Shown here: piece after piece, positions 26,046-32,377 of the stretch
Layout of the letters: every line of letters starts with the position of its first letter
Numbering within the stretch: the stretch's first letter is position 1
Assembly: GCA_021081985.1 (NCBI GenBank)
Contig: GCA_021081985.1_3639.1
DNA: 64,000 bases
Origin: a phage
Reading direction: 5' to 3' (one strand)
Program-made: the position numbers and the translations under genes
The notes under the pieces: generated by a model
What the model was told of the DNA's origin: nothing
The model's input: only the letters and a program-made list of their open reading frames with translations
The model's database searches: none

Positions 26046-26121
26046 GGCCCCTTAGCTCAGTGGTTAGAGCAGGTGACTCATAATCGCTTGGTCGCTGGTT
26101 AAAGTCCAGCAGGGGCCACCA
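26046..26121 (+). tRNA. tRNA-Met (anticodon CAT; could also be Ile2 or initiator)
   Basis: Manual cloverleaf: acceptor GGCCCCT/AGGGGCC, D-arm GCTC..GAGC, anticodon loop cTCATaa, T-arm GCTGG..CCAGC, encoded CCA. Confidence 0.75.
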
Positions 26122-26173
26122 AATGTGGCACACGAAATAAACTAGGTTTATTGTTTTCGGAGGAGAAAACTTA

Positions 26174-26497
26174 ATGGCTAAGAAACAGTCTGCTAAAAAG
26201 GTATCAGCTATCGAGGCGATCAAGCAACCTTTTCAGTTTGAATCAAAATCCACGCAGACACATTCTGCACCGCACGATGTGCGTCTTGGTGGCAAAACGC
26301 AAACTGTAGCAGTTCTGAAAAAACGCAAAGATGAAGACGGTAATACTGAAATGTATTATGAATCTGTGTCTCGTGTCATTGGTGGTGAAGTGATTTCTGC
26401 TTCCTATCGTATCCGTACTGGGAAAACAAAGCGTGAACGAGAAGTGAAACAGAAAACAAGCACTCCTGTAGGAAACGTTAAGAAAACTAAAAAATAA
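26174..26497 (+). CDS. hypothetical basic protein
   Basis: 107 aa, Lys-rich; GGAGGAG RBS. Confidence 0.35.
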   Translation: MAKKQSAKKVSAIEAIKQPFQFESKSTQTHSAPHDVRLGGKTQTVAVLKKRKDEDGNTEMYYESVSRVIGGEVISASYRIRTGKTKREREVKQKTSTPVGNVKKTKK

Positions 26498-26573
26498 TTT
26501 ACTGACGAGAGTGCCACCGTGAGCCAGCGTCATTAAACAAAGGGAATCACGGACATTCAGGAGGGTTGAGATT

Positions 26574-26765
26574 ATGATAGGATCTTTGCTTAAGATTGCA
26601 AGCGATGTAACAACAACGGCTGTTGAAGTGACTGCTGCGGTAACAACTCCGTTTGTTGATTTAGCATCAGATGCTATAGCAGCAGCAGACGAGATGATTT
26701 TGTCACCGACATCTGATCTTGTCCAAGATCTTTGTGATTCTATAAAAGATGCTGTAAAAGATTAA
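26574..26765 (+). CDS. hypothetical small acidic protein
   Basis: 63 aa; AGGAGGG RBS. Confidence 0.3.
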   Translation: MIGSLLKIASDVTTTAVEVTAAVTTPFVDLASDAIAAADEMILSPTSDLVQDLCDSIKDAVKD

Positions 26766-26773
26766 AATTTTTC

Positions 26774-26802
26774 TTGACATAGTTTTTGTTTTTCTGTATA
26801 GT
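26774..26802 (+). promoter_or_regulatory. sigma70-like promoter (TTGACA-17-TATAGT)
   Basis: TTGACAtagtttttgtttttctgTATAGT upstream of the ORF at 26839. Confidence 0.5.
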
Positions 26803-26838
26803 TACTTTATCAAAGCTAATTTACATAGGAGAGATTGA

Positions 26839-27486
26839 ATGTCTACTAAGATTTCCGTAACTCGTGCACTTGCTTCTATCTCTAAGATTGAAGATAAGAT
26901 CAATAAGCGCATTTATAACCTTGAATGTATTAAGATTGCAAAAGGAACTGAGAATAATTGTAAGATTCCTGGTTATATCGGCTCTGTTGATGATTTTAAG
27001 AAATCTGCGATCAACGACTATCAAAGTCTGCAAGACCTCTTGGCAGTTCGCGATGAACTGAAGGCAAAAATTGTCAAGTCTAATGCTGAGACAATTGTCA
27101 AAATTGGTAAGGTGTCTATGACAGTTGCTGAGGCAATCGAACGCAAACGGACGATTTGCTTTAAACAAGAGTTGTTAAACAAACTTTGTGCACAGCGTGC
27201 TTCTGCACAGCTTCTTCTGGCAAAAGAAGAAAAATCTCTGGAAGATAAACTTGAAAATGCCAGAGCGCCATATATCCAACGTGATAAAGCGCCAGATGCA
27301 GAGCAGATTAAGACTGTGGAAGCTCCCATTCGAATGATGAACACACCATCGGTTGTGGATCCTCTTGAACTGGCTTCTAAGATTCGTTCTCTTGAAGAAG
27401 AGATTGAAGATTTCTTGTCTAACGTTGATTTTGCGTTGTCTGAGTCAAACGCTAAGACAGAAATTGAGATTGAGCACTCTCTCTAA
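26839..27486 (+). CDS. hypothetical coiled-coil protein
   Basis: 215 aa; heptad-like charged stretches; AGGAGAG RBS. Confidence 0.4.
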   Translation: MSTKISVTRALASISKIEDKINKRIYNLECIKIAKGTENNCKIPGYIGSVDDFKKSAINDYQSLQDLLAVRDELKAKIVKSNAETIVKIGKVSMTVAEAIERKRTICFKQELLNKLCAQRASAQLLLAKEEKSLEDKLENARAPYIQRDKAPDAEQIKTVEAPIRMMNTPSVVDPLELASKIRSLEEEIEDFLSNVDFALSESNAKTEIEIEHSL

Positions 27487-27520
27487 AAGGCTCTGATAAT
27501 ATCATTATCGTTCCTTTGTT

Positions 27521-27733
27521 TTGAAATTTAAAACATTGCTTTTGATTAACGAAGTTTACATCATCTTGCCTCCTGGGGATTGGAGGTTAAATATTCCCCA
27601 CCATGTATCGTATATGTATGAGGATAATACAGAACATAGATGCAGCGAGGCACACGAAGATGCTTTGTTGTTTCCACTAAGTAAAAGTTCATACAATAAA
27701 GGTCAATGGTTAAATGTGAAAGATGAAACTTGA
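27521..27733 (+). CDS. hypothetical protein
   Basis: 70-aa ORF. Confidence 0.25.
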   Translation: MKFKTLLLINEVYIILPPGDWRLNIPHHVSYMYEDNTEHRCSEAHEDALLFPLSKSSYNKGQWLNVKDET

Positions 27734-27851
27734 AAGTTGACTCTTGAAAGATAAAATTTCGTTTATCATCTGAAATCCTTGACACAGGTTATGGCTCACA
27801 AGATATGGTCTGTAAAGCCTCAAGGCTGTTAATCGGAAGCAATGTCTTATT

Positions 27852-27926
27852 GCTCGTATAGCTCAACGGTAGAGCACCTGCCTTGTAAGCAGGGGGTTGC
27901 AGGTTCGAAACCTGCTGCGAGCACCA
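27852..27926 (+). tRNA. tRNA-Thr (anticodon TGT)
   Basis: Acceptor GCTCGTA/TGCGAGC, D-arm GCTC..GAGC, loop cTTGTaa, T-arm GCAGG-TTCGAAA-CCTGC, CCA encoded. Confidence 0.75.
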
Positions 27927-27928
27927 AT

Positions 27929-28025
27929 GCTGGGTAAGCCCTTTGGCAAGGGCGAGGATTTATAATCCTGAAAATAGACGGGCTAGCCGTTGAATACATA
28001 GGTGGTTCGATTCCATCACCCAGCC
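27929..28025 (+). ncRNA. atypical tRNA-like element (97 nt; intact acceptor, D- and T-arms, aberrant anticodon region)
   Basis: Acceptor GCTGGGT/ACCCAGC, D-arm GCCC..GGGC, T-arm GGTGG-TTCGATT-CCATC, but about 46 nt between D- and T-arms with two hairpins and no encoded CCA. Confidence 0.3.
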
Positions 28026-28226
28026 ACAAGTTTGTTTTATAGTGTATTAGCTTATATTATTCGATATAAATGCCTGATCAGCATTTGTTGTGAATGAGGC
28101 ATACAATGCGTGAGAAAGCTATCGGTGCGCAACGTTGATTTCAAACGTAGTCATGCTCGTAGAGCACCAACTGTGGAAGTTGGAGGGTGGTTGAGTAACC
28201 ATACACTATAAAGCATTCTTTAAAAT

Positions 28227-28311
28227 GGGCGGTGTCCCCACACAAGTCTTCTAAACTTGTACTTAAAAAGTGGGAAGGAAGTGAGAGGTTCGATTCCTCC
28301 ACCGTCTACCA
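28227..28311 (+). ncRNA. atypical tRNA-like element (T-arm, acceptor and CTTCTAA anticodon-like hairpin but no D-arm)
   Basis: GGTTCGATTCC T-loop, acceptor GGGCGGT/ACCGTCT plus ACCA, hairpin CAAGT-cttctaa-ACTTG; does not fold as a canonical cloverleaf by hand. Confidence 0.3.
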
Positions 28312-28387
28312 GATTAACCCCAACTTGAGAATCGTCAGCGCGGCTCGTAAGACCCACTCTATAGGTTCTCTACCTGGGGTGCTTATT

Positions 28388-28464
28388 GCACGGTTGCCGG
28401 AATTTGGTTACGGGTCTGTCTGCAAAACGGATATATGTCGGTTCAAGTCCGACACCGTGCTCCA
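28388..28464 (+). tRNA. tRNA-Cys (anticodon GCA)
   Basis: Acceptor GCACGGT/ACCGTGC, loop cTGCAaa, T-arm GTCGG-TTCAAGT-CCGAC, CCA encoded. Confidence 0.7.
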
Positions 28465-28501
28465 AACTTTCAATTTCTTGGCAAATATGTTAAAATACCA
28501 C

Positions 28502-28530
28502 TTGACAGATATGTTTTTATTTGATAATAT
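28502..28530 (+). promoter_or_regulatory. sigma70-like promoter (TTGACA-17-TAATAT)
   Basis: TTGACAgatatgtttttatttgaTAATAT upstream of ATG 28551. Confidence 0.45.
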
Positions 28531-28550
28531 CATTAAGTGGGGTTTTTAAA

Positions 28551-28898
28551 ATGGCTACTAAGCAGCTTACAAAACGTAGAAGAGGAAAAGGTCGTCCTCT
28601 GAAAGAGGAATCTAATGCAATTCAGTTAGAGAAAAATATCCTAGATTTGAAAACGAATCTGATTGCAATGATTCCTGAAGCTCATCAGGTTCTTAGGGAT
28701 TTGATGAAGAATGTGAATACAAAAGACAATATCAGAGAAAATATCGCTCGTTATGTTATTGAGAAAGGTGAGCAGATGCTTTCTGATTACTTTGATGAGG
28801 AAAACGAAGAGTTACTCGAAAAAGATAACTCAGAAAAAGCGCCTATTAAGGCAGCCAAACCATTCTCGACGGATATTGTTCAATTCAAACAAGGTTAA
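28551..28898 (+). CDS. hypothetical protein (start at internal ATG of track ORF 28521..28898)
   Basis: MATKQLTKRRRGKGRP...; promoter-like element immediately upstream. Confidence 0.35.
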   Translation: MATKQLTKRRRGKGRPLKEESNAIQLEKNILDLKTNLIAMIPEAHQVLRDLMKNVNTKDNIRENIARYVIEKGEQMLSDYFDEENEELLEKDNSEKAPIKAAKPFSTDIVQFKQG

Positions 28899-28899
28899 T

Positions 28900-28989
28900 G
28901 TGTCGTTAGACCGTAGGGGTAGCGGGGGAGACTGTAAATCTCCTGTCTCGAAAGGGACTCGGGTAGTTCGACTCTATCACGGCACACCA
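28900..28989 (+). tRNA. tRNA-Tyr (anticodon GTA), long variable arm
   Basis: Acceptor GTGTCGT/ACGGCAC, loop cTGTAaa, variable-arm hairpin GTCTC-gaaa-GGGAC, T-arm GGTAG-TTCGACT-CTATC, CCA encoded. Confidence 0.7.
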
Positions 28990-29057
28990 ACTAAATCTGT
29001 ACTGGCTTTGATGTGTGACGATACCCTCCAATCGTGGTTGTTGGGTCAGTACAGTTT

Positions 29058-29133
29058 GGGAGTGTAGATCAGTTAGTAGATCGCTCGACCGATAATCGAG
29101 AGGACGTAGGGGCAGAGCCTACCACTCCCACCA
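29058..29133 (+). tRNA. tRNA-Ile-like (anticodon GAT) with non-canonical T-loop and C33; possibly degenerate
   Basis: Acceptor GGGAGTG/CACTCCC, D-arm GATC..GATC, loop ccGATaa, T-arm GTAGG-GGCAGAG-CCTAC. Confidence 0.4.
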
Positions 29134-29138
29134 AATAT

Positions 29139-29213
29139 GCATCCATAGTTTAATTGGGAAAACTACAGCCTTCCAAGCTGAAGTCGAGGGTTCGATGCCC
29201 TCTGGATGCTCCA
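29139..29213 (+). tRNA. tRNA-Gly (anticodon TCC)
   Basis: Acceptor GCATCCA/TGGATGC, D-arm GTTT..AAAC, loop cTTCCaa, T-arm GAGGG-TTCGATG-CCCTC, CCA encoded. Confidence 0.65.
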
Positions 29214-29338
29214 GTTAAAAGATGTCAATGAAATCCGCTTGGGTCAACTGAAGACCGTAACAAATTCCATGGGGTTGTGTTTGCGGTCCAACCCTAGACA
29301 TCTTCTATCTTTAGTAGAAGGCTTTAATACGGACGAGT

Positions 29339-29569
29339 ATGATGGTTTCTAAATTAATCATAACAAGGCATCATAATGCTAAAGAAATAGAGATTGTGAA
29401 TGCTGCTGGCACTCTTGTGCTAAAAGTTGGTAAAGACTGTCCTTTTGAATTGTGCCAGAAGGAACTTTTAAGTTTGTGCGGTTTCAGGTTTAAACAGATT
29501 ATCTTTGAAAATGCTTTTCAATATTCAGACTTAAACCAGTACATTATATCTAGGCTTGATCCTGCATGA
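29339..29569 (+). CDS. hypothetical protein embedded in tRNA array
   Basis: 76-aa ORF. Confidence 0.3.
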   Translation: MMVSKLIITRHHNAKEIEIVNAAGTLVLKVGKDCPFELCQKELLSLCGFRFKQIIFENAFQYSDLNQYIISRLDPA

Positions 29570-30123
29570 GATACTTGAAATATTTATCTTGGATCCTGTT
29601 AGCACCTCTTGATCCAATTATGTCGGCTCTCTGTGTTATTCTGGCTCCTTTTGTTGTTCCGTTCTATAATGAGAAGACAGGGCATCTACCCTATATTTTC
29701 AGGTGGATGGAAACATATGATAATCCTATAGACGGTGACAGAGGACACATAGAGAGATGGGAAGAAGTCCGTAAAATAGGAAGTTTTGGTGTTTACCTAC
29801 AACGAGTTGCTTGGTTGTGGAGAAATAAAGCCTACAATTTTTCCTATCACGTACTTGGACGTGAAATCGCATCTGTGACAAAGTGGAAAGGAAACATCCA
29901 TGTAAGCTCTGATGTGGAGGATAATCAACAAGGCTATTTGTTGATGTGGAATGACAATGCGTGGGGTGTATTCGCGTTTGTCCCGTCTTTTAGATTGTTT
30001 GGAAAACAATTTTACTGGCGAATTTATGTCGGTTGGAAACTGAAGAGTGTGGTTCCTGAAGACAGAGCTTTTTCAAGAGAGAGGGTGATGTTGGCATTTT
30101 TCATAAGTCCTTTCCGAAAATAG
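29566..30123 (+). CDS. hypothetical protein (hydrophobic N-terminus, Trp-rich) embedded in tRNA array
   Basis: 185-aa ORF, ATGA overlap with upstream ORF. Confidence 0.4.
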   Translation: MRYLKYLSWILLAPLDPIMSALCVILAPFVVPFYNEKTGHLPYIFRWMETYDNPIDGDRGHIERWEEVRKIGSFGVYLQRVAWLWRNKAYNFSYHVLGREIASVTKWKGNIHVSSDVEDNQQGYLLMWNDNAWGVFAFVPSFRLFGKQFYWRIYVGWKLKSVVPEDRAFSRERVMLAFFISPFRK

Positions 30124-30129
30124 TTTTTA

Positions 30130-30211
30130 ATGAGAGTAGCGTAACTTCACTGGGTGAAGGCTGGCCTCCAAAACCAGTGACTAAGAGGTTCGATTCCTCA
30201 CTCTCGTGCCA
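30130..30211 (+). tRNA. tRNA-like gene, possible tRNA-Trp (anticodon CCA), irregular D-region
   Basis: Acceptor ATGAGAG/CTCTCGT, loop cTCCAaa, T-loop TTCGATT, CCA encoded; D-region forms a tight 6-bp hairpin instead of a normal D-arm. Confidence 0.35.
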
Positions 30212-30212
30212 A

Positions 30213-30288
30213 AGGGGATTAGCATAGTGGCCTAATGCAACGGGCTTTGACCCCGTGATCGGTTGTTCGAATCAACCATCCCCTGCCA
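30213..30288 (+). tRNA. tRNA-Gln (anticodon TTG)
   Basis: Acceptor AGGGGAT/ATCCCCT, D-arm GCAT..ATGC, loop cTTTGac, T-arm GGTTG-TTCGAAT-CAACC, CCA. Confidence 0.75.
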
Positions 30289-30297
30289 AGTTAAAAC

Positions 30298-30387
30298 GGA
30301 GAAGCAAATCGATTGGCGACGAAACCACATTGGAAATGTGCTGACTGGTAAAACGGCTTGAGAGTTCGATTCTCTCCTTCTCCACCA
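30298..30387 (+). tRNA. tRNA-Ser (anticodon GGA), type II
   Basis: Acceptor GGAGAAG/CTTCTCC, loop tTGGAaa, T-arm GAGAG-TTCGATT-CTCTC, CCA; variable arm pairs weakly. Confidence 0.5.
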
Positions 30388-30401
30388 GTTTTTAAGGATT
30401 T

Positions 30402-31145
30402 ATGTATGCACTCTCCCCAAGAAAAAAAAATGGAAAACAGATATTTAATTTGTTGAAAAGCGGAAAAGGCTTCTCAAACCCGCTTCAATCAGGTCTTTCT
30501 CTGGTTGGTGGTAAAGTAAGTAGTCTATCTTCTTTATCTTCCTCTATTTCTTCGGTAACTAACCCAGCTATAAAGGCTCAATTAGCTGCCGCAGGTTTGA
30601 CAACTGGCGTTTTATCAAATTTTACTTCGTCTCTTGGTTCTGTTACAAGCACGACAAAAACGCTTGTTGATTATGGTCAGAAATCTGTTGAAGAGTTCTC
30701 CCAAAGAATGCACGCAGCGAGTAATTATATGAGTACTCTGAGCAGAATGGGAGAAAAGACAAGTTGTTCAATATTTAGTGACGTTATGTCTGTAGCCACT
30801 GATTTAGGTAAGAAAGCTATGGATGCCGTTAATTCCGCGATGGATGCGGTGAACGATGTTATGTCTCAATTGCAAGATGCAATAAATAAGGGTTTGAATA
30901 CAATATCTAGTTTGGCGAGTAAAGCTGTCTCAGCGATAAACAAAGGGATCCAGAAAATGTCTGAGTATGCTAGCCAAGTGACAAAGATGATTGAAGATGA
31001 AGCAAAGAAGTTGGCAGACTACTTAAAGACAAGTGCTGAAGGATTTCTCGCAGATATCCTACCTGATTGGTTTAACGATTCTTGTAAATCTGGTATAGTT
31101 GACCAGATTGCTACACCAGAGATGAAAGAAGTTCTTAAAAAGTAA
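30402..31145 (+). CDS. hypothetical Ser/Thr-rich helical protein embedded in tRNA array
   Basis: 247-aa ORF between tRNA genes; start may be internal. Confidence 0.4.
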   Translation: MYALSPRKKNGKQIFNLLKSGKGFSNPLQSGLSLVGGKVSSLSSLSSSISSVTNPAIKAQLAAAGLTTGVLSNFTSSLGSVTSTTKTLVDYGQKSVEEFSQRMHAASNYMSTLSRMGEKTSCSIFSDVMSVATDLGKKAMDAVNSAMDAVNDVMSQLQDAINKGLNTISSLASKAVSAINKGIQKMSEYASQVTKMIEDEAKKLADYLKTSAEGFLADILPDWFNDSCKSGIVDQIATPEMKEVLKK

Positions 31146-31147
31146 TT

Positions 31148-31241
31148 GGAAGATTAACCCTAATTTGGTAAGGGGTCTCCCTGCTAAGGAGATAGTAACC
31201 CAGAAATGGGTGTGCCAGTTCAAGTCTGGCATCTTCCTCCA
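31148..31241 (+). tRNA. tRNA-Ser (anticodon GCT), type II
   Basis: Acceptor GGAAGAT/ATCTTCC, loop cTGCTaa, variable-arm hairpin ACCCA-gaaa-TGGGT, T-arm GCCAG-TTCAAGT-CTGGC, CCA. Confidence 0.65.
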
Positions 31242-31320
31242 CTGTATGTCAAGGCTCAGATTTCTTCGGACCTGGGCGTTCGCCTTTGTTGGGTGTATAT
31301 TCTCGGCAGAGGCTATCTTT

Positions 31321-31409
31321 GGAGGCTGGGGTGCATGGTGCACAAGCTGGTTTGAACCCAGTCCCGCTGTAGAGATATGGTGACAGTTCGATTCTGTCAG
31401 CCTCCTCCA
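31321..31409 (+). tRNA. tRNA-Ser (anticodon TGA), type II
   Basis: Acceptor GGAGGCT/AGCCTCC, loop tTTGAac, T-arm GACAG-TTCGATT-CTGTC, CCA. Confidence 0.6.
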
Positions 31410-31632
31410 AGTTATCTTTAATGTAGCTTGTTTAGTTGCTTGGTGTGATTTTTCGGTGGATGGCTGCAACCATCTTATCGATACCCCAGAGCAGTCCGCT
31501 CTTTACTGGCGTAAGCCAAACACTTATGATGGTCATGTAATCGTAATCTATCATTAGTGTGCTCTCCCTGGAGAGCTGTTGCGTATAGCTAATTATTGTG
31601 TGAGTAATTAGCTATTTTAAAGATAATTTGAC

Positions 31633-31709
31633 GGATCTGTAGCCAAATGGTTTAAGGCACTCGACTTTTAATCGAGAGATTGTTGGTTCGAATCCAACCA
31701 GATCCACCA
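31633..31709 (+). tRNA. tRNA-Lys (anticodon TTT)
   Basis: Acceptor GGATCTG/CAGATCC, D-arm GCC..GGC, loop cTTTTaa, T-arm GTTGG-TTCGAAT-CCAAC, CCA. Confidence 0.8.
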
Positions 31710-31718
31710 AAATATTCA

Positions 31719-31809
31719 GGTTCTTTGACCGAGTGGTCGATGGTGACGGCCTGTTAAGCCGTTGGGAGGAATCTCCCCACCGAAGGTTCGAATCCTTCAG
31801 GAACCGCCA
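31719..31809 (+). tRNA. tRNA with anticodon GTT (Asn codons) but type-II body and G73 discriminator
   Basis: Acceptor GGTTCTT/AGGAACC, D-arm ACCG..TGGT, anticodon stem ACGGC/GCCGT with loop cTGTTaa, variable-arm hairpin GGGAG-gaat-CTCCC, T-arm GAAGG-TTCGAAT-CCTTC, disc G, CCA. Confidence 0.5.
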
Positions 31810-31893
31810 ATTCTTGACTTAATCAAGTCACAGATATCACCTAGCCAGCGATACCAGTTAGTAGATTCTGGGACAATTAAAATCTACATTTCT

Positions 31894-31971
31894 CTGTCCG
31901 TAGCGCAGCTTGGGTAGCGCGGGTCACTTGGGATGATCAGGTCGTTGGTTCAAATCCAACCGGACAGACCA
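31894..31971 (+). tRNA. tRNA-Pro (anticodon TGG)
   Basis: Acceptor CTGTCCG/CGGACAG, D-arm GCGC..GCGC, loop cTTGGga, T-arm GTTGG-TTCAAAT-CCAAC, CCA. Confidence 0.75.
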
Positions 31972-32013
31972 ATAAACATATACATATCAAAGCAGAAATG
32001 TACAGAGGATACC

Positions 32014-32205
32014 ATGTTAACAGTTAAAGTCGTATCTCCAAATGATGAACAAATTTTTTGTGGGAAAATTGTTGGGTATTGTGCTCATCAAAAGTCTATA
32101 GCTATTTCAGGTATTGACCAAAAAGTGTTTTTGTCTGAGGATCAGACCGCTTATGTGATCAATGCCAATGGAAAAACTATTTCTGTGTATCGTGGAAAAC
32201 CGTAA
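32014..32205 (+). CDS. hypothetical small protein (internal ATG of track ORF 31933..32205, which overlaps tRNA-Pro)
   Basis: MLTVKVVSPNDEQ...; AGGA RBS 5 nt upstream. Confidence 0.3.
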   Translation: MLTVKVVSPNDEQIFCGKIVGYCAHQKSIAISGIDQKVFLSEDQTAYVINANGKTISVYRGKP

Positions 32206-32219
32206 CTCTTAATATAAAT

Positions 32220-32296
32220 GGGCGATTGATGGAATTGGTATACATGTCAGGCTTAGAACCTGAATTTTGGGGGTTCGAGTCCCTCATCGCCTACCA
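32220..32296 (+). tRNA. tRNA with anticodon TAG (Leu codon CUA) but short variable arm (type-I body)
   Basis: Acceptor GGGCGAT/ATCGCCT, anticodon stem TCAGG/CCTGA with loop cTTAGaa, 5-nt variable loop, T-arm GGGGG-TTCGAGT-CCCTC, A73, CCA. Confidence 0.5.
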
Positions 32297-32301
32297 ATTA
32301 T

Positions 32302-32377
32302 GTGACGGTAACTCAGTTGGTAGAGTGCCTTGCTGAAGACTAGGTGGTCACAGGTTCGAATCCTGTCCGTCACACCA
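32302..32377 (+). tRNA. tRNA-Phe (anticodon GAA)
   Basis: Acceptor GTGACGG/CCGTCAC, D-arm ACTC..GAGT, loop cTGAAga, T-arm ACAGG-TTCGAAT-CCTGT, CCA. Confidence 0.7.

What the first reader, a model, noticed from the sequence alone, without database searches (positions are those of the whole stretch)
27929..28311. Cluster of degenerate or atypical tRNA-like elements
Between tRNA-Thr and tRNA-Cys lie an element with perfect acceptor, D- and T-arms but a 46-nt aberrant middle region (27929..28025), a fragment resembling the tRNA-Thr D-arm plus a TGG anticodon hairpin (about 28150-28200), and an element with T-arm, acceptor, CCA and a CTTCTAA anticodon-like hairpin but no D-arm (28227..28311). These look like decaying tRNA genes or non-canonical tRNA-derived RNAs.
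Basis: seen in the sequence. Interest (0 to 1): 0.45.

Follow-up and report, generated by a model that had tools for sequence, protein, structure and literature searches.

The report
Rebuilt arginine tRNA in phage cluster
Of three odd tRNA-like elements in this phage's tRNA operon, one is a dead tRNA fragment and two are conserved, properly folded RNAs; one of these is an arginine tRNA whose D-arm is replaced by a pseudoknot, a design found in hundreds of unrelated phages and missed by standard tRNA finders.

Summary
The reading "decaying tRNA genes" is right only for the middle element.

- **Window:** a Vequintavirinae phage, 98.5% identical to Escherichia phage Av-05.
- **Element 3 (28227-28311):** part of a family with about 350 BLAST matches in phage records (T5-like Vibrio/Aeromonas, T4-like Acinetobacter, Salmonella Arash, prophages), plus viral and metagenome contigs.
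  - In 48 distinct sequences, 99.4% of pair cells are paired and 18 of 25 pairs show compensatory changes.
  - Two crossing helices form a pseudoknot that replaces the D-arm.
  - Every member carries anticodon UCU or CCU (both Arg) and an encoded CCA.
  - In the near-identical phage TH18 the same slot holds a canonical tRNA-Arg(UCU). Av-05 has no other tRNA-Arg, while AGA+AGG make up 50% of Arg codons here.
  - Most likely it is a working, structurally non-canonical tRNA-Arg. This is inferred; charging was not tested.
- **Element 1 (27929-28025):** a tRNA-like RNA conserved in every Vequintavirinae genus sampled here, with covarying stems, a 31-41-nt variable region and a non-conserved "anticodon" loop. 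Its function is unknown.
- **Element 2 (28155-28204):** a dead tRNA-Thr fragment.

I found no published description of either conserved family in the searched library.

The parts
27730..27757 (+). Promoter-like site (TTGAAA-16-TAAAAT) upstream of the tRNA-Thr / element 1 / element 2 / element 3 / tRNA-Cys run
   Evidence: Consensus scan. The next promoter-like site is at 28502-28530, after tRNA-Cys, and no terminator-like site lies between. A consensus match only; it suggests one transcription unit.
27852..27926 (+). Canonical tRNA-Thr(UGU), the source of the element 2 fragment
   Evidence: ARAGORN; Rfam 73.6 bits.
27929..28025 (+). Element 1: Vequintavirinae-specific tRNA-like RNA. Acceptor 27929-27935 / 28018-28024; D-arm 27938-27953; T-arm 28001-28017; discriminator C at 28025; no encoded CCA in this phage.
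   Evidence: Rfam tRNA 33.1 bits. 162 phage records hold a match, 157 of them nearly full length. Four stems 99.2% paired, 9 of 21 pairs with compensatory changes.
27955..27969 (+). Element 1 'anticodon' hairpin AGGAU-UUAUA-AUCCU. It can also be read as a 4-bp stem with the 7-nt loop UUUAUAA, giving anticodon UAU.
   Evidence: The stem covaries between genera, but the loop differs in size and sequence: UUUUUAA in rV5-like phages, CAUCCA / CAGCCA / CCUCCA in Seunavirus and Mydovirus, CAUCAAA in Henunavirus.
27970..28000 (+). Element 1 oversized variable region: conserved GAAAAUA, hairpin 27977-27991 (GACGG-GCUAG-CCGUU), conserved GAAUACAUA
   Evidence: In 7 of 9 variants a hairpin forms at this same place with unrelated stem sequences. 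The flanking single strands are nearly invariant.
28155..28204 (+). Element 2: dead fragment of a tRNA-Thr copy (the acceptor-5' and D-arm sequence with part of the D region deleted, a 5-nt-loop hairpin, a degenerate T-arm, no 3' acceptor strand)
   Evidence: Local alignment of the spacer to tRNA-Thr: z = 4.6, 0 of 300 shuffles. Only tRNA-Ser(UGA) comes anywhere near (z = 2.4, 9 of 300); the other tRNAs tested, including tRNA-Leu of relatives, score about as shuffles do. No RNA family at E <= 10. Present in Av-05 and TH18.
28227..28311 (+). Element 3: D-arm-less, pseudoknotted tRNA-Arg(UCU)-like gene (85 nt including the encoded CCA)
   Evidence: Covariance model R1 scores it 100.3 bits. Family alignment A3 and pair counts. 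Slot swap with canonical tRNA-Arg in TH18.
28227..28233 (+). Element 3 acceptor 5' strand GGGCGGU, pairing with 28301-28307 (ACCGUCU), with G1-U72 and G3-U70 wobbles
   Evidence: All 7 pairs show compensatory changes in the family; 99.4% paired.
28237..28241 (+). Element 3 helix S1 5' strand CCCAC (where a D-stem would start), pairing with 28270-28274 (GUGGG) inside the variable region
   Evidence: 100% paired in 48 sequences, 3 of 5 pairs compensatory, for example CCAGC:GCUGG, CCGAC:GUCGG, CCCUC:GAGGG.
28242..28260 (+). Element 3 anticodon arm: 6-bp stem ACAAGU/ACUUGU and loop CUUCUAA, with anticodon UCU at 28250-28252
   Evidence: 5 of 6 pairs compensatory. The anticodon is UCU or CCU in every family sequence listed by the anticodon-free pattern.
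28261..28264 (+). Element 3 helix S2 5' strand ACU(U), pairing with 28279-28282 (A)AGU. It crosses S1, which makes a pseudoknot.
   Evidence: 100% paired, all 3 counted pairs compensatory: ACU:AGU, AGC:GCU, ACG:CGU, CAC:GUG, ACC:GGU, GCC:GGC.
28275..28279 (+). Element 3 segment AAGGA after S1. The GGA is invariant. It is a candidate stand-in for the G18-G19 contact with the T-loop (inference).
   Evidence: Invariant columns in A3.
28284..28300 (+). Element 3 T-arm AGAGG-UUCGAUU-CCUCC, with an invariant A-C at the first stem position
   Evidence: Invariant in the family. The loop has the canonical T-loop sequence.
28308..28311 (+). Element 3 discriminator A and encoded CCA
   Evidence: CCA is invariant in A3; the discriminator is A, G or U.
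28388..28464 (+). Canonical tRNA-Cys(GCA), the downstream anchor of the conserved gene order
   Evidence: ARAGORN; gene order in relatives.

Best explanation
The 27.85-28.46 kb stretch is one tRNA transcription unit that holds three different things.

(1) Element 3 is a real gene for a structurally non-canonical tRNA-Arg.
- It keeps a 7-bp acceptor stem, a 5-position T-stem with a canonical T-loop, an encoded CCA, and an anticodon arm with the loop CUUCUAA, which my parse of the T4 tRNA-Arg sequence also gives.
- It has no D hairpin. Instead the 5 nt at the D position pair with 5 nt inside a long variable region (S1). The base of that variable region forms a short helix of its own (S2) that crosses S1, so the core of the molecule is a pseudoknot.
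- Inferred mechanism: it is cut out of the operon transcript like its neighbours, charged by host arginyl-tRNA synthetase (C35 and U36 are present; an A from the conserved A-run may stand in for A20), and reads AGA/AGG. These are half of the phage's Arg codons, while AGA is rare in E. coli (5.1% of Arg codons).
- It entered the Av-05 lineage by replacing the canonical tRNA-Arg(UCU) gene in the same slot.
- Shown: the fold, the conservation, the restriction to Arg anticodons, the swap. Inferred: charging and decoding.

(2) Element 1 is a tRNA-like RNA found in every Vequintavirinae genus sampled here. It has a canonical acceptor, D-arm and T-arm, a 31-41-nt variable region and a fast-changing 'anticodon' loop. 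It is under structural selection. Most likely it acts as a tRNA mimic whose role does not depend on one fixed anticodon. In rV5-like phages it may double as the phage's tRNA-Lys(UUU).

(3) Element 2 is a non-functional remnant of a tRNA-Thr duplication.
For: Element 3, fold:
- In 48 distinct sequences 99.4% of pair cells are standard pairs and 18 of 25 pairs show compensatory changes. None of 500 shuffles reaches this, and slid controls give 34-50% paired.
- S1 and S2 are each 100% paired with 3 covarying pairs (the smaller set agrees).

Element 3, spread:
- 351 phage records hold a BLAST match, nearly all spanning most of the element. They cover Demerecviridae, Straboviridae, Vequintavirinae and unclassified phages.
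- 28-30 IMG/VR contigs, 49 metagenome contigs, and one prophage among 185,579 species genomes.
- Model R1 gives 80 hits of at least 60 bits; the next full-length hits score about 41 and 37 bits.

Element 3, Arg identity:
- A search pattern that does not specify the anticodon found only UCU and CCU members. The two types sit in tandem in Aeromonas phage AhSzw-1.

Element 3, equivalence to tRNA-Arg:
- In TH18 the flanks are almost base-for-base identical, and the slot holds a 77-nt canonical tRNA-Arg(UCU).
- Other Vequintavirinae genera have the order Thr, element 1, Leu, Arg, Cys.
- Contig L016 has a UCU family member where its relative L045 has a canonical tRNA-Arg(UCU). No locus holds both.
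- ARAGORN finds no canonical tRNA-Arg in the window, or in the stretches of Av-05 fetched separately; together these correspond to the whole 121-kb Av-05 genome.

Element 3, need:
- AGA is 38.1% and AGG 12.4% of Arg codons in 51 long ORFs, against 5.1% for AGA in E. coli O157 (PMC3606486).

Element 1. Element 2.
Against: - No expression, processing or aminoacylation data exist. All function is inferred from sequence.
- A20 in the D-loop is a major identity element for E. coli ArgRS (established knowledge), and there is no D-loop here. Whether the A-run replaces it is untested.
- D-arm-less tRNAs are known to work only in metazoan mitochondria, in some lineages with specialised factors (established knowledge). 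Performance on a bacterial ribosome is unproven.
- The 3-D arrangement of S1 and S2 was not modelled. Zero-length linkers at the anticodon stem mean the core cannot copy the canonical D-stem geometry.
- The co-occurrence test used loci of 1-15 kb, not whole genomes, except for Av-05.
- For element 1 the proposed role is weak. Anticodon loop and discriminator vary between genera, and no known synthetase identity set fits.
Confidence: 0.62

Rival explanations
1. Element 3 is not used in translation. It is a tRNA-Arg mimic (decoy or sponge) that binds and titrates a host factor directed at tRNA-Arg(UCU/CCU), such as an anticodon nuclease or another tRNA-targeting defence protein. The altered core keeps it from being consumed or from entering the ribosome.
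For: - The anticodon loop is kept exactly while the core is rebuilt.
- Phage tRNAs are known to counter tRNA-cleaving defences (PMC11464382 read; PMC10264068 and PMC11555353 listed).
- Av-05 also encodes a CCA-adding enzyme and RNA ligase 2 (annotation), which fits a conflict over tRNA.
- A PIN-domain gene lies near the family member in the Spirabiliibacterium prophage.
Against: - It occupies the exact slot of a canonical tRNA-Arg(UCU) in a near-identical phage and is the only UCU-bearing gene in Av-05. A pure decoy would leave a phage with 50% AGR Arg codons without its own supply.
- Family members and canonical tRNA-Arg(UCU) never shared a locus.
- A 12-bp acceptor/T branch and an invariant encoded CCA are what aminoacylation and EF-Tu binding need.
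- The UCU and CCU subtypes together cover both AGR codons, as isoacceptors do.
Confidence: 0.15
2. One reading: all three elements are tRNA genes in decay, with no function.
For: - Element 2 is a truncated tRNA-Thr copy with no RNA-family signal.
- ARAGORN misses all three.
- Element 1 in this phage lacks an encoded CCA, and its loop differs by one base from the rV5-type loop.
Against: - Elements 1 and 3 keep every stem through compensatory changes in distant relatives: 99.2% and 99.4% paired, with none of 500 shuffles reaching the observed covariation.
- Element 3 occurs in unrelated phage families, which cannot come from shared decay.
Confidence: 0.03
3. Element 1 is a true decoding tRNA whose charging does not depend on the anticodon, as with class II tRNAs. 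It would read different codons in different genera: Lys AAA in rV5-like phages, Ile AUA here, UGA in Henunavirus. That would make it a phage recoding or suppressor tRNA.
For: - It has a long variable arm like class II tRNAs.
- With a 4-bp stem, the rV5-type loop UUUUUAA and the window loop UUUAUAA have U33 and A37 in place.
- rV5-like copies have discriminator A, and rV5 has no canonical tRNA-Lys (PMC3606486). Genera whose loci here include a canonical tRNA-Lys carry other loops.
- GenBank annotators have called it tRNA-Lys, tRNA-TERM or tRNA-OTHER.
- ATA is frequent in this phage, about 16 per 1000 codons.
Against: - Loop length is 5-6 nt in most genera if the closing pair forms, and Henunavirus has A33.
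- The discriminator varies (C, U, A) and fits neither SerRS (G73) nor LeuRS/TyrRS (A73) identity across the family (established knowledge of identity sets).
- The 7- and 9-nt single-stranded flanks of the variable arm have no counterpart in class II tRNAs.
Confidence: 0.15

Closest known systems
Canonical bacterial and phage tRNA-Arg(UCU): E. coli argU, T4 tRNA-Arg, and the TH18 gene in the same slot
   Same: - Anticodon UCU in the loop CUUCUAA, with U33 and A37.
- 7-bp acceptor, T-loop UUCGAUU, encoded CCA, discriminator A or G.
- G1-U72, as in T4 tRNA-Arg. Contig L012's member has the same acceptor stem as T4 tRNA-Arg, GUCCCGC/GCGGGAU.
- Same genomic slot as the TH18 gene.
   Different: - No D hairpin and G8 instead of U8.
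- 6-bp anticodon stem.
- A 23-nt variable region that forms a pseudoknot with the D position.
- The Rfam tRNA model does not report it at E <= 10. The TH18 canonical tRNA-Arg scores only 19.8 bits on the family model, against 100.3 for element 3.
Metazoan mitochondrial tRNA-Ser(AGY/AGN), which lacks the D-arm
   Same: A functional tRNA without a D hairpin that reads AGN codons with a GCU or UCU anticodon (established knowledge).
   Different: - The mitochondrial species has a simple replacement loop, no long variable region and no pseudoknot. It often has weak T-loop features and is charged with serine.
- Element 3 comes from viruses of Gammaproteobacteria, has a fully canonical T-arm, and keeps Arg anticodons.
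Phage T4 species 1 and species 2 RNAs (rnaC, rnaD)
   Same: Stable small RNAs of unknown function encoded inside a phage tRNA cluster next to tRNA-Arg. rnaC carries a tRNA-like T-arm.
   Different: - No resemblance by eye to element 1 or 3 in the T4 sequence, and model R1 gives no match at rnaC or rnaD; no formal alignment was made.
- 119 and 139 nt long, with no anticodon arm of the tRNA-Arg type.
allo-tRNAs and (8/4), (9/3) tRNAs (Mukai et al. 2017, PMC5389517)
   Same: Non-canonical tRNA architectures found in bacteria and phages by genome and metagenome mining. Some have long variable arms and unusual anticodons.
   Different: Those change the acceptor/T split (8/4 or 9/3) but keep a D-arm. 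Elements 1 and 3 keep 7/5 and change the core instead. The paper mentions no pseudoknot and no tRNA-Arg.
Class II tRNAs (Ser, Leu, bacterial Tyr, Sec), compared with element 1
   Same: Cloverleaf with a base-paired extra arm between the anticodon arm and the T-arm.
   Different: - Element 1's variable region is 31-41 nt, with conserved 7- and 9-nt single-stranded flanks.
- The anticodon loop is not conserved in length or sequence, and position 8 is A.
- The tRNA-Sec hallmarks (8/5 split, 6-bp D-stem, UCA anticodon) are absent.
Phage tRNAs that escape tRNA-cleaving defences, such as T5 tRNA-Lys versus PARIS AriB
   Same: A phage-encoded isoacceptor that differs from the host tRNA in structure and replaces it during infection (PMC11464382).
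   Different: Known cases differ by a few substitutions in the anticodon stem-loop. Here the anticodon loop is unchanged and the whole D/variable core is rebuilt. No link to any defence system has been shown.

Membership tests
Canonical tRNA (Rfam RF00005), element 3 | Score at or above the family gathering score (29 bits) | tested here: not met
   No RF00005 match is reported for 28227-28311 at E <= 10. The best match kept from the tRNA clan is tRNA-Sec at 29.6 bits. ARAGORN is silent.
Canonical tRNA, element 3 | 7-bp acceptor stem plus 5-bp T-stem with a T-loop, and a 3' CCA | tested here: met
   The acceptor covaries at all 7 pairs. The T-arm is invariant with loop UUCGAUU. CCA is invariant. 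The first T-stem position is A-C.
Canonical tRNA, element 3 | D-arm hairpin (stem 10-13:22-25, loop with G18 G19) and U8 | tested here: not met
   Only 9 nt lie between the acceptor and the anticodon stem. Position 8 is an invariant G. The D-position strand pairs with the variable region instead.
Canonical tRNA, element 3 | Anticodon arm with a 7-nt loop, U33 and purine 37 | tested here: met
   The loop is CUUCUAA in nearly all members, and U33 is kept in all. The stem is 6 bp rather than 5.
tRNA-Arg isoacceptor (function), element 3 | Arg anticodon with C35 and U36/G36; discriminator A or G; A20 | tested here: inconclusive
   C35 and U36 are invariant. The discriminator is A, G or U. There is no D-loop, so A20 has no direct counterpart. 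A20 as an identity element is from established knowledge.
tRNA-Arg isoacceptor (function), element 3 | Aminoacylation by ArgRS and decoding of AGR codons | not testable with these tools
   Indirect support only: slot swap with canonical tRNA-Arg, never in the same locus as one, codon usage.
tRNA-Sec (Rfam RF01852), element 3 | Gathering score 47 bits; 8/5 branch; 6-bp D-stem; anticodon UCA | tested here: not met
   29.6 bits. The branch is 7/5, there is no D-stem, and the anticodon is UCU.
Canonical tRNA (Rfam RF00005), element 1 | Score at or above the gathering score; four-arm cloverleaf | tested here: met
   33.1 bits against a threshold of 29, with a 26-nt insertion in the variable region. 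The four stems covary.
Decoding tRNA, element 1 | Conserved 7-nt anticodon loop with U33 and a stable anticodon within the family | tested here: not met
   The loop is 5, 6 or 7 nt and differs between genera: UUAUA, UUUUA, CAUCCA, CAGCCA, CCUCCA, CAUCAAA.
Class II tRNA, element 1 | Variable arm of roughly 13-21 nt with 1-2-nt flanks, plus an identity set for Ser, Leu or Tyr (G73 or A73) | tested here: not met
   The variable region is 31-41 nt with 7- and 9-nt flanks. The discriminator is C, U or A. Typical class II values are from established knowledge.
T4 rnaC / rnaD | Sequence or structural similarity to the T4 species 1 and 2 RNAs | tested here: not met
   T4 sequences were read. Model R1's only T4 hit is tRNA-Thr at 22.5 bits.
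tRNA pseudogene or fragment, element 2 | Similarity to a parent tRNA plus loss of features essential for function | tested here: met
   z = 4.6 against tRNA-Thr, 0 of 300 shuffles. No 3' acceptor strand, a 5-nt loop, and no RNA-family hit at E <= 10.

The most novel reading that the evidence does not exclude
Phages of Gammaproteobacteria circulate, by horizontal transfer, tRNAs whose core has been re-engineered: the D-arm replaced by a pseudoknot in tRNA-Arg, and an oversized variable arm in the Vequintavirinae element. These tRNAs would remain chargeable and work on the bacterial ribosome. The rebuilt core would be an adaptation that makes them invisible to host tRNA-targeting immunity, or to enzymes that read the D-arm and elbow. 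If so, element 3 would be, to my knowledge, the first D-arm-less elongator tRNA shown to work in a bacterial translation system, and tRNA architecture itself, not only anticodon-loop point mutations, would be a front in the phage-host arms race.
Probability: 0.25. Interest if true: 0.88.

Novelty: new variant of a known kind. Interest (0 to 1): 0.72.

Why it matters
- **A missed class of tRNA gene.** If element 3 is a working tRNA-Arg, the cloverleaf core is more replaceable in a bacterial translation system than assumed. Standard tools (ARAGORN, the Rfam tRNA model) then miss a whole class of phage tRNA genes. No record listed in the BLAST tables annotates it as a tRNA; the features under the match are blank or "hypothetical protein".
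- **Consequences for annotation.** This affects phage tRNA censuses and codon-usage arguments, and it produces spurious hypothetical ORFs over the element.
- **A natural experiment.** Av-05 and TH18 differ in this slot by a clean swap between the canonical and the pseudoknotted allele. That pair can test directly what the new architecture buys the phage, including resistance to tRNA-cleaving defences.
- **A compact scaffold.** The family is an 85-nt, strongly covarying scaffold for structural work and for engineering orthogonal tRNAs.
- **Element 1.** It adds a second conserved tRNA-like RNA of unknown function, found in every Vequintavirinae genus sampled here; that subfamily includes phages studied for biocontrol.

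Tried and rejected
1. **Known RNA families.** Rfam 15, at gathering thresholds and at E <= 10 over 27500-29400, gave nothing for elements 2 and 3 beyond a sub-threshold tRNA-Sec match.
2. **T4 species 1 and 2 RNAs as homologues.** I read their sequences. They are not similar, and model R1 does not hit them.
3. **Element 2 as a relic of the tRNA-Leu found in that slot in other genera.** It shows no similarity to three such tRNA-Leu genes. Clear similarity is to the window's tRNA-Thr; tRNA-Ser(UGA) is a weak second.
4. **A homing endonuclease as the agent of the tRNA swap.** The ORFs within the cluster are DUF7338 and DUF7217 or have no family. No support.
5. **Protein-coding explanation.** ORFs overlapping the elements (for example 28232-28549, 105 aa, GTG start) also run through tRNA-Cys. 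The substitution pattern is base-pair covariation, so I rejected this.
6. **Element 3 as a chromosomal bacterial tRNA used as a prophage attachment site.** Only one hit turned up in 185,579 species genomes, and it lies in prophage context. Rejected as a general explanation.
7. **A canonical cloverleaf found by ARAGORN for some members.** It-99-nt genes in L012, L016 and L044-L046 by recruiting upstream bases that are not conserved in the family. I do not accept these folds.
8. **Literature.** Nine full-text searches and the rV5 genome paper, the allo-tRNA paper, the PARIS paper and the Schlafen paper describe neither family. The library does not cover most subscription journals, so earlier description cannot be excluded.
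9. **A 3-D model of the pseudoknot.** No tool was available.
Full report
**Context**

The window comes from a Vequintavirinae phage. Positions 27500-28600 are 98.5% identical to Escherichia phage Av-05 (Avunavirus) and 94.6% identical to TH18, 18-1-2, 19-1-2 and 24-2-1. A tRNA cluster runs from 26046 to 32377 on the + strand. ARAGORN finds 14 tRNAs there and none for Arg. Rfam adds two more matches, at 29058-29130 and at 27929-28025. A promoter-like site at 27730-27757 precedes tRNA-Thr. The next one follows tRNA-Cys, and no terminator-like site lies between them. Thr, element 1, element 2, element 3 and Cys are therefore probably one transcript. This is inferred from consensus matches only.

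**Checking the observation**

All three elements are at the stated coordinates.
- Element 1 has perfect acceptor and D stems and a T stem with one G-U. Its 46-nt middle consists of a 15-nt hairpin plus 31 nt. Rfam's tRNA model accepts it at 33.1 bits (gathering score 29) with a 26-nt insertion.
- Element 3 has an acceptor stem, a T-arm, ACCA and a CUUCUAA hairpin, but no D hairpin. Its only Rfam match is tRNA-Sec at 29.6 bits, below the gathering score of 47.
- Element 2 gives no RNA-family match at E <= 10.

**Element 3: the family**

BLAST against 50,697 phage records finds near full-length matches at 75-88% identity in about 350 records. These include:
- T5-like Vibrio phages and Aeromonas AhSzw-1 (Demerecviridae);
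- T4-like Acinetobacter Lazarusvirus phages;
- Salmonella phage Arash;
- Nitrincola and Salicola phages;
- only Av-05 among the Escherichia phages.

No record listed in those BLAST tables annotates it as a tRNA. Pattern scans add 28-30 IMG/VR contigs and 49 metagenome contigs. Among 185,579 species genomes there is one true hit, in Spirabiliibacterium pneumoniae next to a P22-type antirepressor gene, which marks a prophage. A covariance model built from 26 sequences separates 80 hits of at least 60 bits from everything else; apart from two end-truncated members, the next hits score about 41 and 37 bits. The window copy scores 100.3 bits.

**Element 3: the fold**

In an alignment of 48 distinct sequences I tested five helices:
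- acceptor, columns 1-7 with 78-84;
- S1, columns 11-15 with 47-51;
- anticodon stem, columns 16-21 with 29-34;
- S2, columns 35-37 with 57-59;
- T-stem, columns 62-65 with 73-76.

The results are:
- 99.4% of 1200 pair cells are standard pairs.
- 18 of 25 pairs show compensatory changes.
- None of 500 column shuffles reaches the observed values.
- Sliding the 3' partners by 1-3 columns drops pairing to 34-50%.
- S1 and S2 are each 100% paired with three covarying pairs.

S1 and S2 cross each other, so the core is a pseudoknot. The strand that would begin a D-stem (CCCAC, 28237-28241) pairs with GUGGG (28270-28274) inside the loop of a short variable-arm helix (ACU, 28261-28263, with AGU, 28280-28282). 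The T-arm, the CCA, G8 and a GGA after S1 are invariant. I infer that this GG may replace the G18-G19 contact with the T-loop. The minimum-energy fold of the window copy recovers the acceptor, S1 and the anticodon hairpin.

**Element 3: what it does**

Four lines of evidence point to a working tRNA-Arg.

1. *Only Arg anticodons.* A search pattern that leaves the anticodon free returned only UCU members plus a second subtype with CCU (loop CUCCUAA). The two subtypes sit in tandem in AhSzw-1 and in contig L016. Both anticodons read arginine AGR codons and keep C35 and U36.
2. *Slot swap.* TH18 is nearly base-for-base identical to the window on both sides. Between about 28222 and 28308 it carries a canonical 77-nt tRNA-Arg(UCU) instead. 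More distant Vequintavirinae genera have the order Thr, element 1, Leu, Arg, Cys. A second swap appears in unrelated contigs of about 175 kb: L045 has a CCU-type member followed by a canonical tRNA-Arg(UCU), where L016 has a CCU-type member followed by a UCU-type member.
3. *No co-occurrence.* No locus holds both a UCU member and a canonical tRNA-Arg(UCU). ARAGORN finds no canonical tRNA-Arg in the window or in the separately fetched stretches of Av-05; together these correspond to the whole Av-05 genome.
4. *Demand.* AGA and AGG are 38.1% and 12.4% of Arg codons in 51 long ORFs of the window. AGA is 5.1% of Arg codons in E. coli O157 (PMC3606486).

The acceptor/T branch is the canonical 7/5 and the CCA is encoded, which is what charging and EF-Tu binding need. 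The G1-U72 pair that is the commonest first pair in the family also occurs in T4 tRNA-Arg, and contig L012's member has the very same acceptor stem as T4 tRNA-Arg. This suggests descent from a phage tRNA-Arg.

Charging, decoding and the benefit of the new core were not tested. The absence of a D-loop A20, a major ArgRS identity element in E. coli (established knowledge), is the main reason for caution. The decoy rival stays open at about 0.15.

**Element 1**

- 162 phage records hold a match, 157 of them nearly full length. Identity is 92-94% in more than 110 rV5-like phages and about 72%, with length changes, in Seunavirus, Mydovirus and Henunavirus.
- GenBank annotators have labelled it tRNA-OTHER, tRNA-Lys, tRNA-TERM or tRNA-???.
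- Across 12 distinct sequences the four cloverleaf stems are 99.2% paired, with 9 of 21 pairs compensatory.
- The variable region always has the same layout: GAAAAUA, then a hairpin, then GAAUACAUA. In 7 of 9 variants the hairpin forms at the same place with unrelated stem sequences.
- The "anticodon" loop is the least conserved part: UUAUA here, UUUUA in rV5-like phages, CAUCCA, CAGCCA or CCUCCA elsewhere, and CAUCAAA in Henunavirus. The discriminator varies as well.

Element 1 is therefore a selected, folded tRNA-like RNA, but not an ordinary decoder. One observation deserves follow-up. rV5-like phages have no canonical tRNA-Lys (PMC3606486), and their copy can present a UUU anticodon with discriminator A. 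Genera whose loci here include a canonical tRNA-Lys carry other loops.

**Element 2**

The 200-nt spacer at 28026-28226 is clearly similar only to the window's tRNA-Thr (z = 4.6, 0 of 300 shuffles); tRNA-Ser(UGA) is a weak second (z = 2.4, 9 of 300), and tRNA-Leu of relatives scores no better than shuffles. The matching part reads as the tRNA-Thr acceptor-5' and D-arm sequence with part of the D region deleted (4 nt in the computed alignment), followed by a short-looped hairpin and a degenerate T-arm. There is no 3' acceptor strand. It is present in Av-05 and TH18, but those genomes are too close for that to indicate selection. I treat it as a dead fragment.

**Comparison with known systems**

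- Element 3 works like a tRNA-Arg but fails the structural definition of a canonical tRNA, because it has no D-arm and does not reach the Rfam threshold.
- The nearest functional analogy is the D-arm-less mitochondrial tRNA-Ser(AGY). That molecule has no pseudoknot and no long variable region.
- The T4 rnaC and rnaD RNAs, the allo-tRNAs and tRNA-Sec were each considered and do not fit.
- Nine literature searches and four papers gave no description of either family. The searched library is incomplete.

**Verdict**

- Element 3 is a new structural variant of tRNA with wide distribution among phages, and a natural canonical/non-canonical allele pair exists for testing it.
- Element 1 is a conserved tRNA-like RNA of unknown role.
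- Element 2 is debris.
- Interest is 0.72.

Noticed in passing
window 30134-30211 (+), just upstream of tRNA-Gln; the same element is in Av-05 (L001 7641-7713): Another tRNA-like element missed by ARAGORN and by Rfam at gathering thresholds. It matches the tRNA-Sec model at 34.4 bits (gathering score 47). It has a 6-bp D-stem with a 4-nt loop, an anticodon loop CUCCAAA (CCA, Trp), a 4-bp T-stem, a possible 8-bp acceptor (AUGAGAGU/ACUCUCGU) and GCCA at the 3' end. This may be an 8/4-type tRNA.
   Followed up: partly
window 29058-29130 (+): Rfam calls a tRNA at 53.4 bits that ARAGORN does not report. The anticodon loop is CCGAUAA (GAU, Ile, with C at position 33), and the T-loop is GGCAGAG instead of the usual UUCGAAU type.
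   Followed up: no
window 31719-31809 (+): The tRNA-Asn(GUU) is 91 nt long and has a base-paired long variable arm (UGGGAGGAAUCUCCCCA). tRNA-Asn is normally a short class I tRNA, so this is a class II-like scaffold with an Asn anticodon.
   Followed up: no
L042 3392-3473 and L038 3364-3445 (Klebsiella Mydovirus phages P8734 and KNP2): A different, unannotated tRNA-like gene with anticodon UCU and no D hairpin. It has acceptor GAGGGCG/CGCCUUC, loop CUUCUAA, T-arm GCGGG-UUCGAAU-CCUGC and GCCA at the 3' end. It sits between tRNA-Leu and tRNA-Cys, where other genera have tRNA-Arg. It scores only 36.7 bits on the element 3 model, so the loss of the D-arm may be independent.
   Followed up: partly
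window 30402-31145 (+): A 247-aa ORF (DUF7217, E = 8.6e-75) lies between tRNA-Ser(GGA) and tRNA-Ser(GCU). In Av-05 these two tRNA genes are only 21 nt apart, so this is an insertion or deletion difference between very close relatives.
   Followed up: partly
L005 1925-1999 (Acinetobacter phage Abraxas); L010 6822-6906; L044 354-433 and L046 6314-6393: The carrier phages also encode other unusual tRNAs by ARAGORN: a CUA (amber-reading) tRNA labelled tRNA-Pyl, a UUA 'tRNA-Stop', and tRNAs with a four-base anticodon (tgga).
   Followed up: no
Av-05 genome, KM190144 37094-38338 and 93070-94104 (L112, L113): Av-05 is annotated with its own tRNA nucleotidyltransferase (CCA-adding enzyme), RNA ligase 2, a site-specific RNA endonuclease and a 'valyl-tRNA synthetase modifier'. 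This is a tRNA maintenance and repair toolkit. It matters because element 1 has no encoded CCA in this phage.
   Followed up: no
L049 1701-2249 (Spirabiliibacterium pneumoniae NZ_JABMII010000004): A PIN-domain protein gene lies about 2 kb from the family member in a prophage region that also carries a Bro-N/P22 antirepressor gene. PIN-domain toxins include tRNA nucleases, but no link has been shown here.
   Followed up: no
window 27754-27851 (+): In the BLAST hits to Salmonella KE22/KE23 and Enterobacter FENT2 phages, similarity starts about 100 nt upstream of tRNA-Thr, covering the promoter-like site and leader, while the rest of the 370-nt intergenic region is not matched.
   Followed up: no
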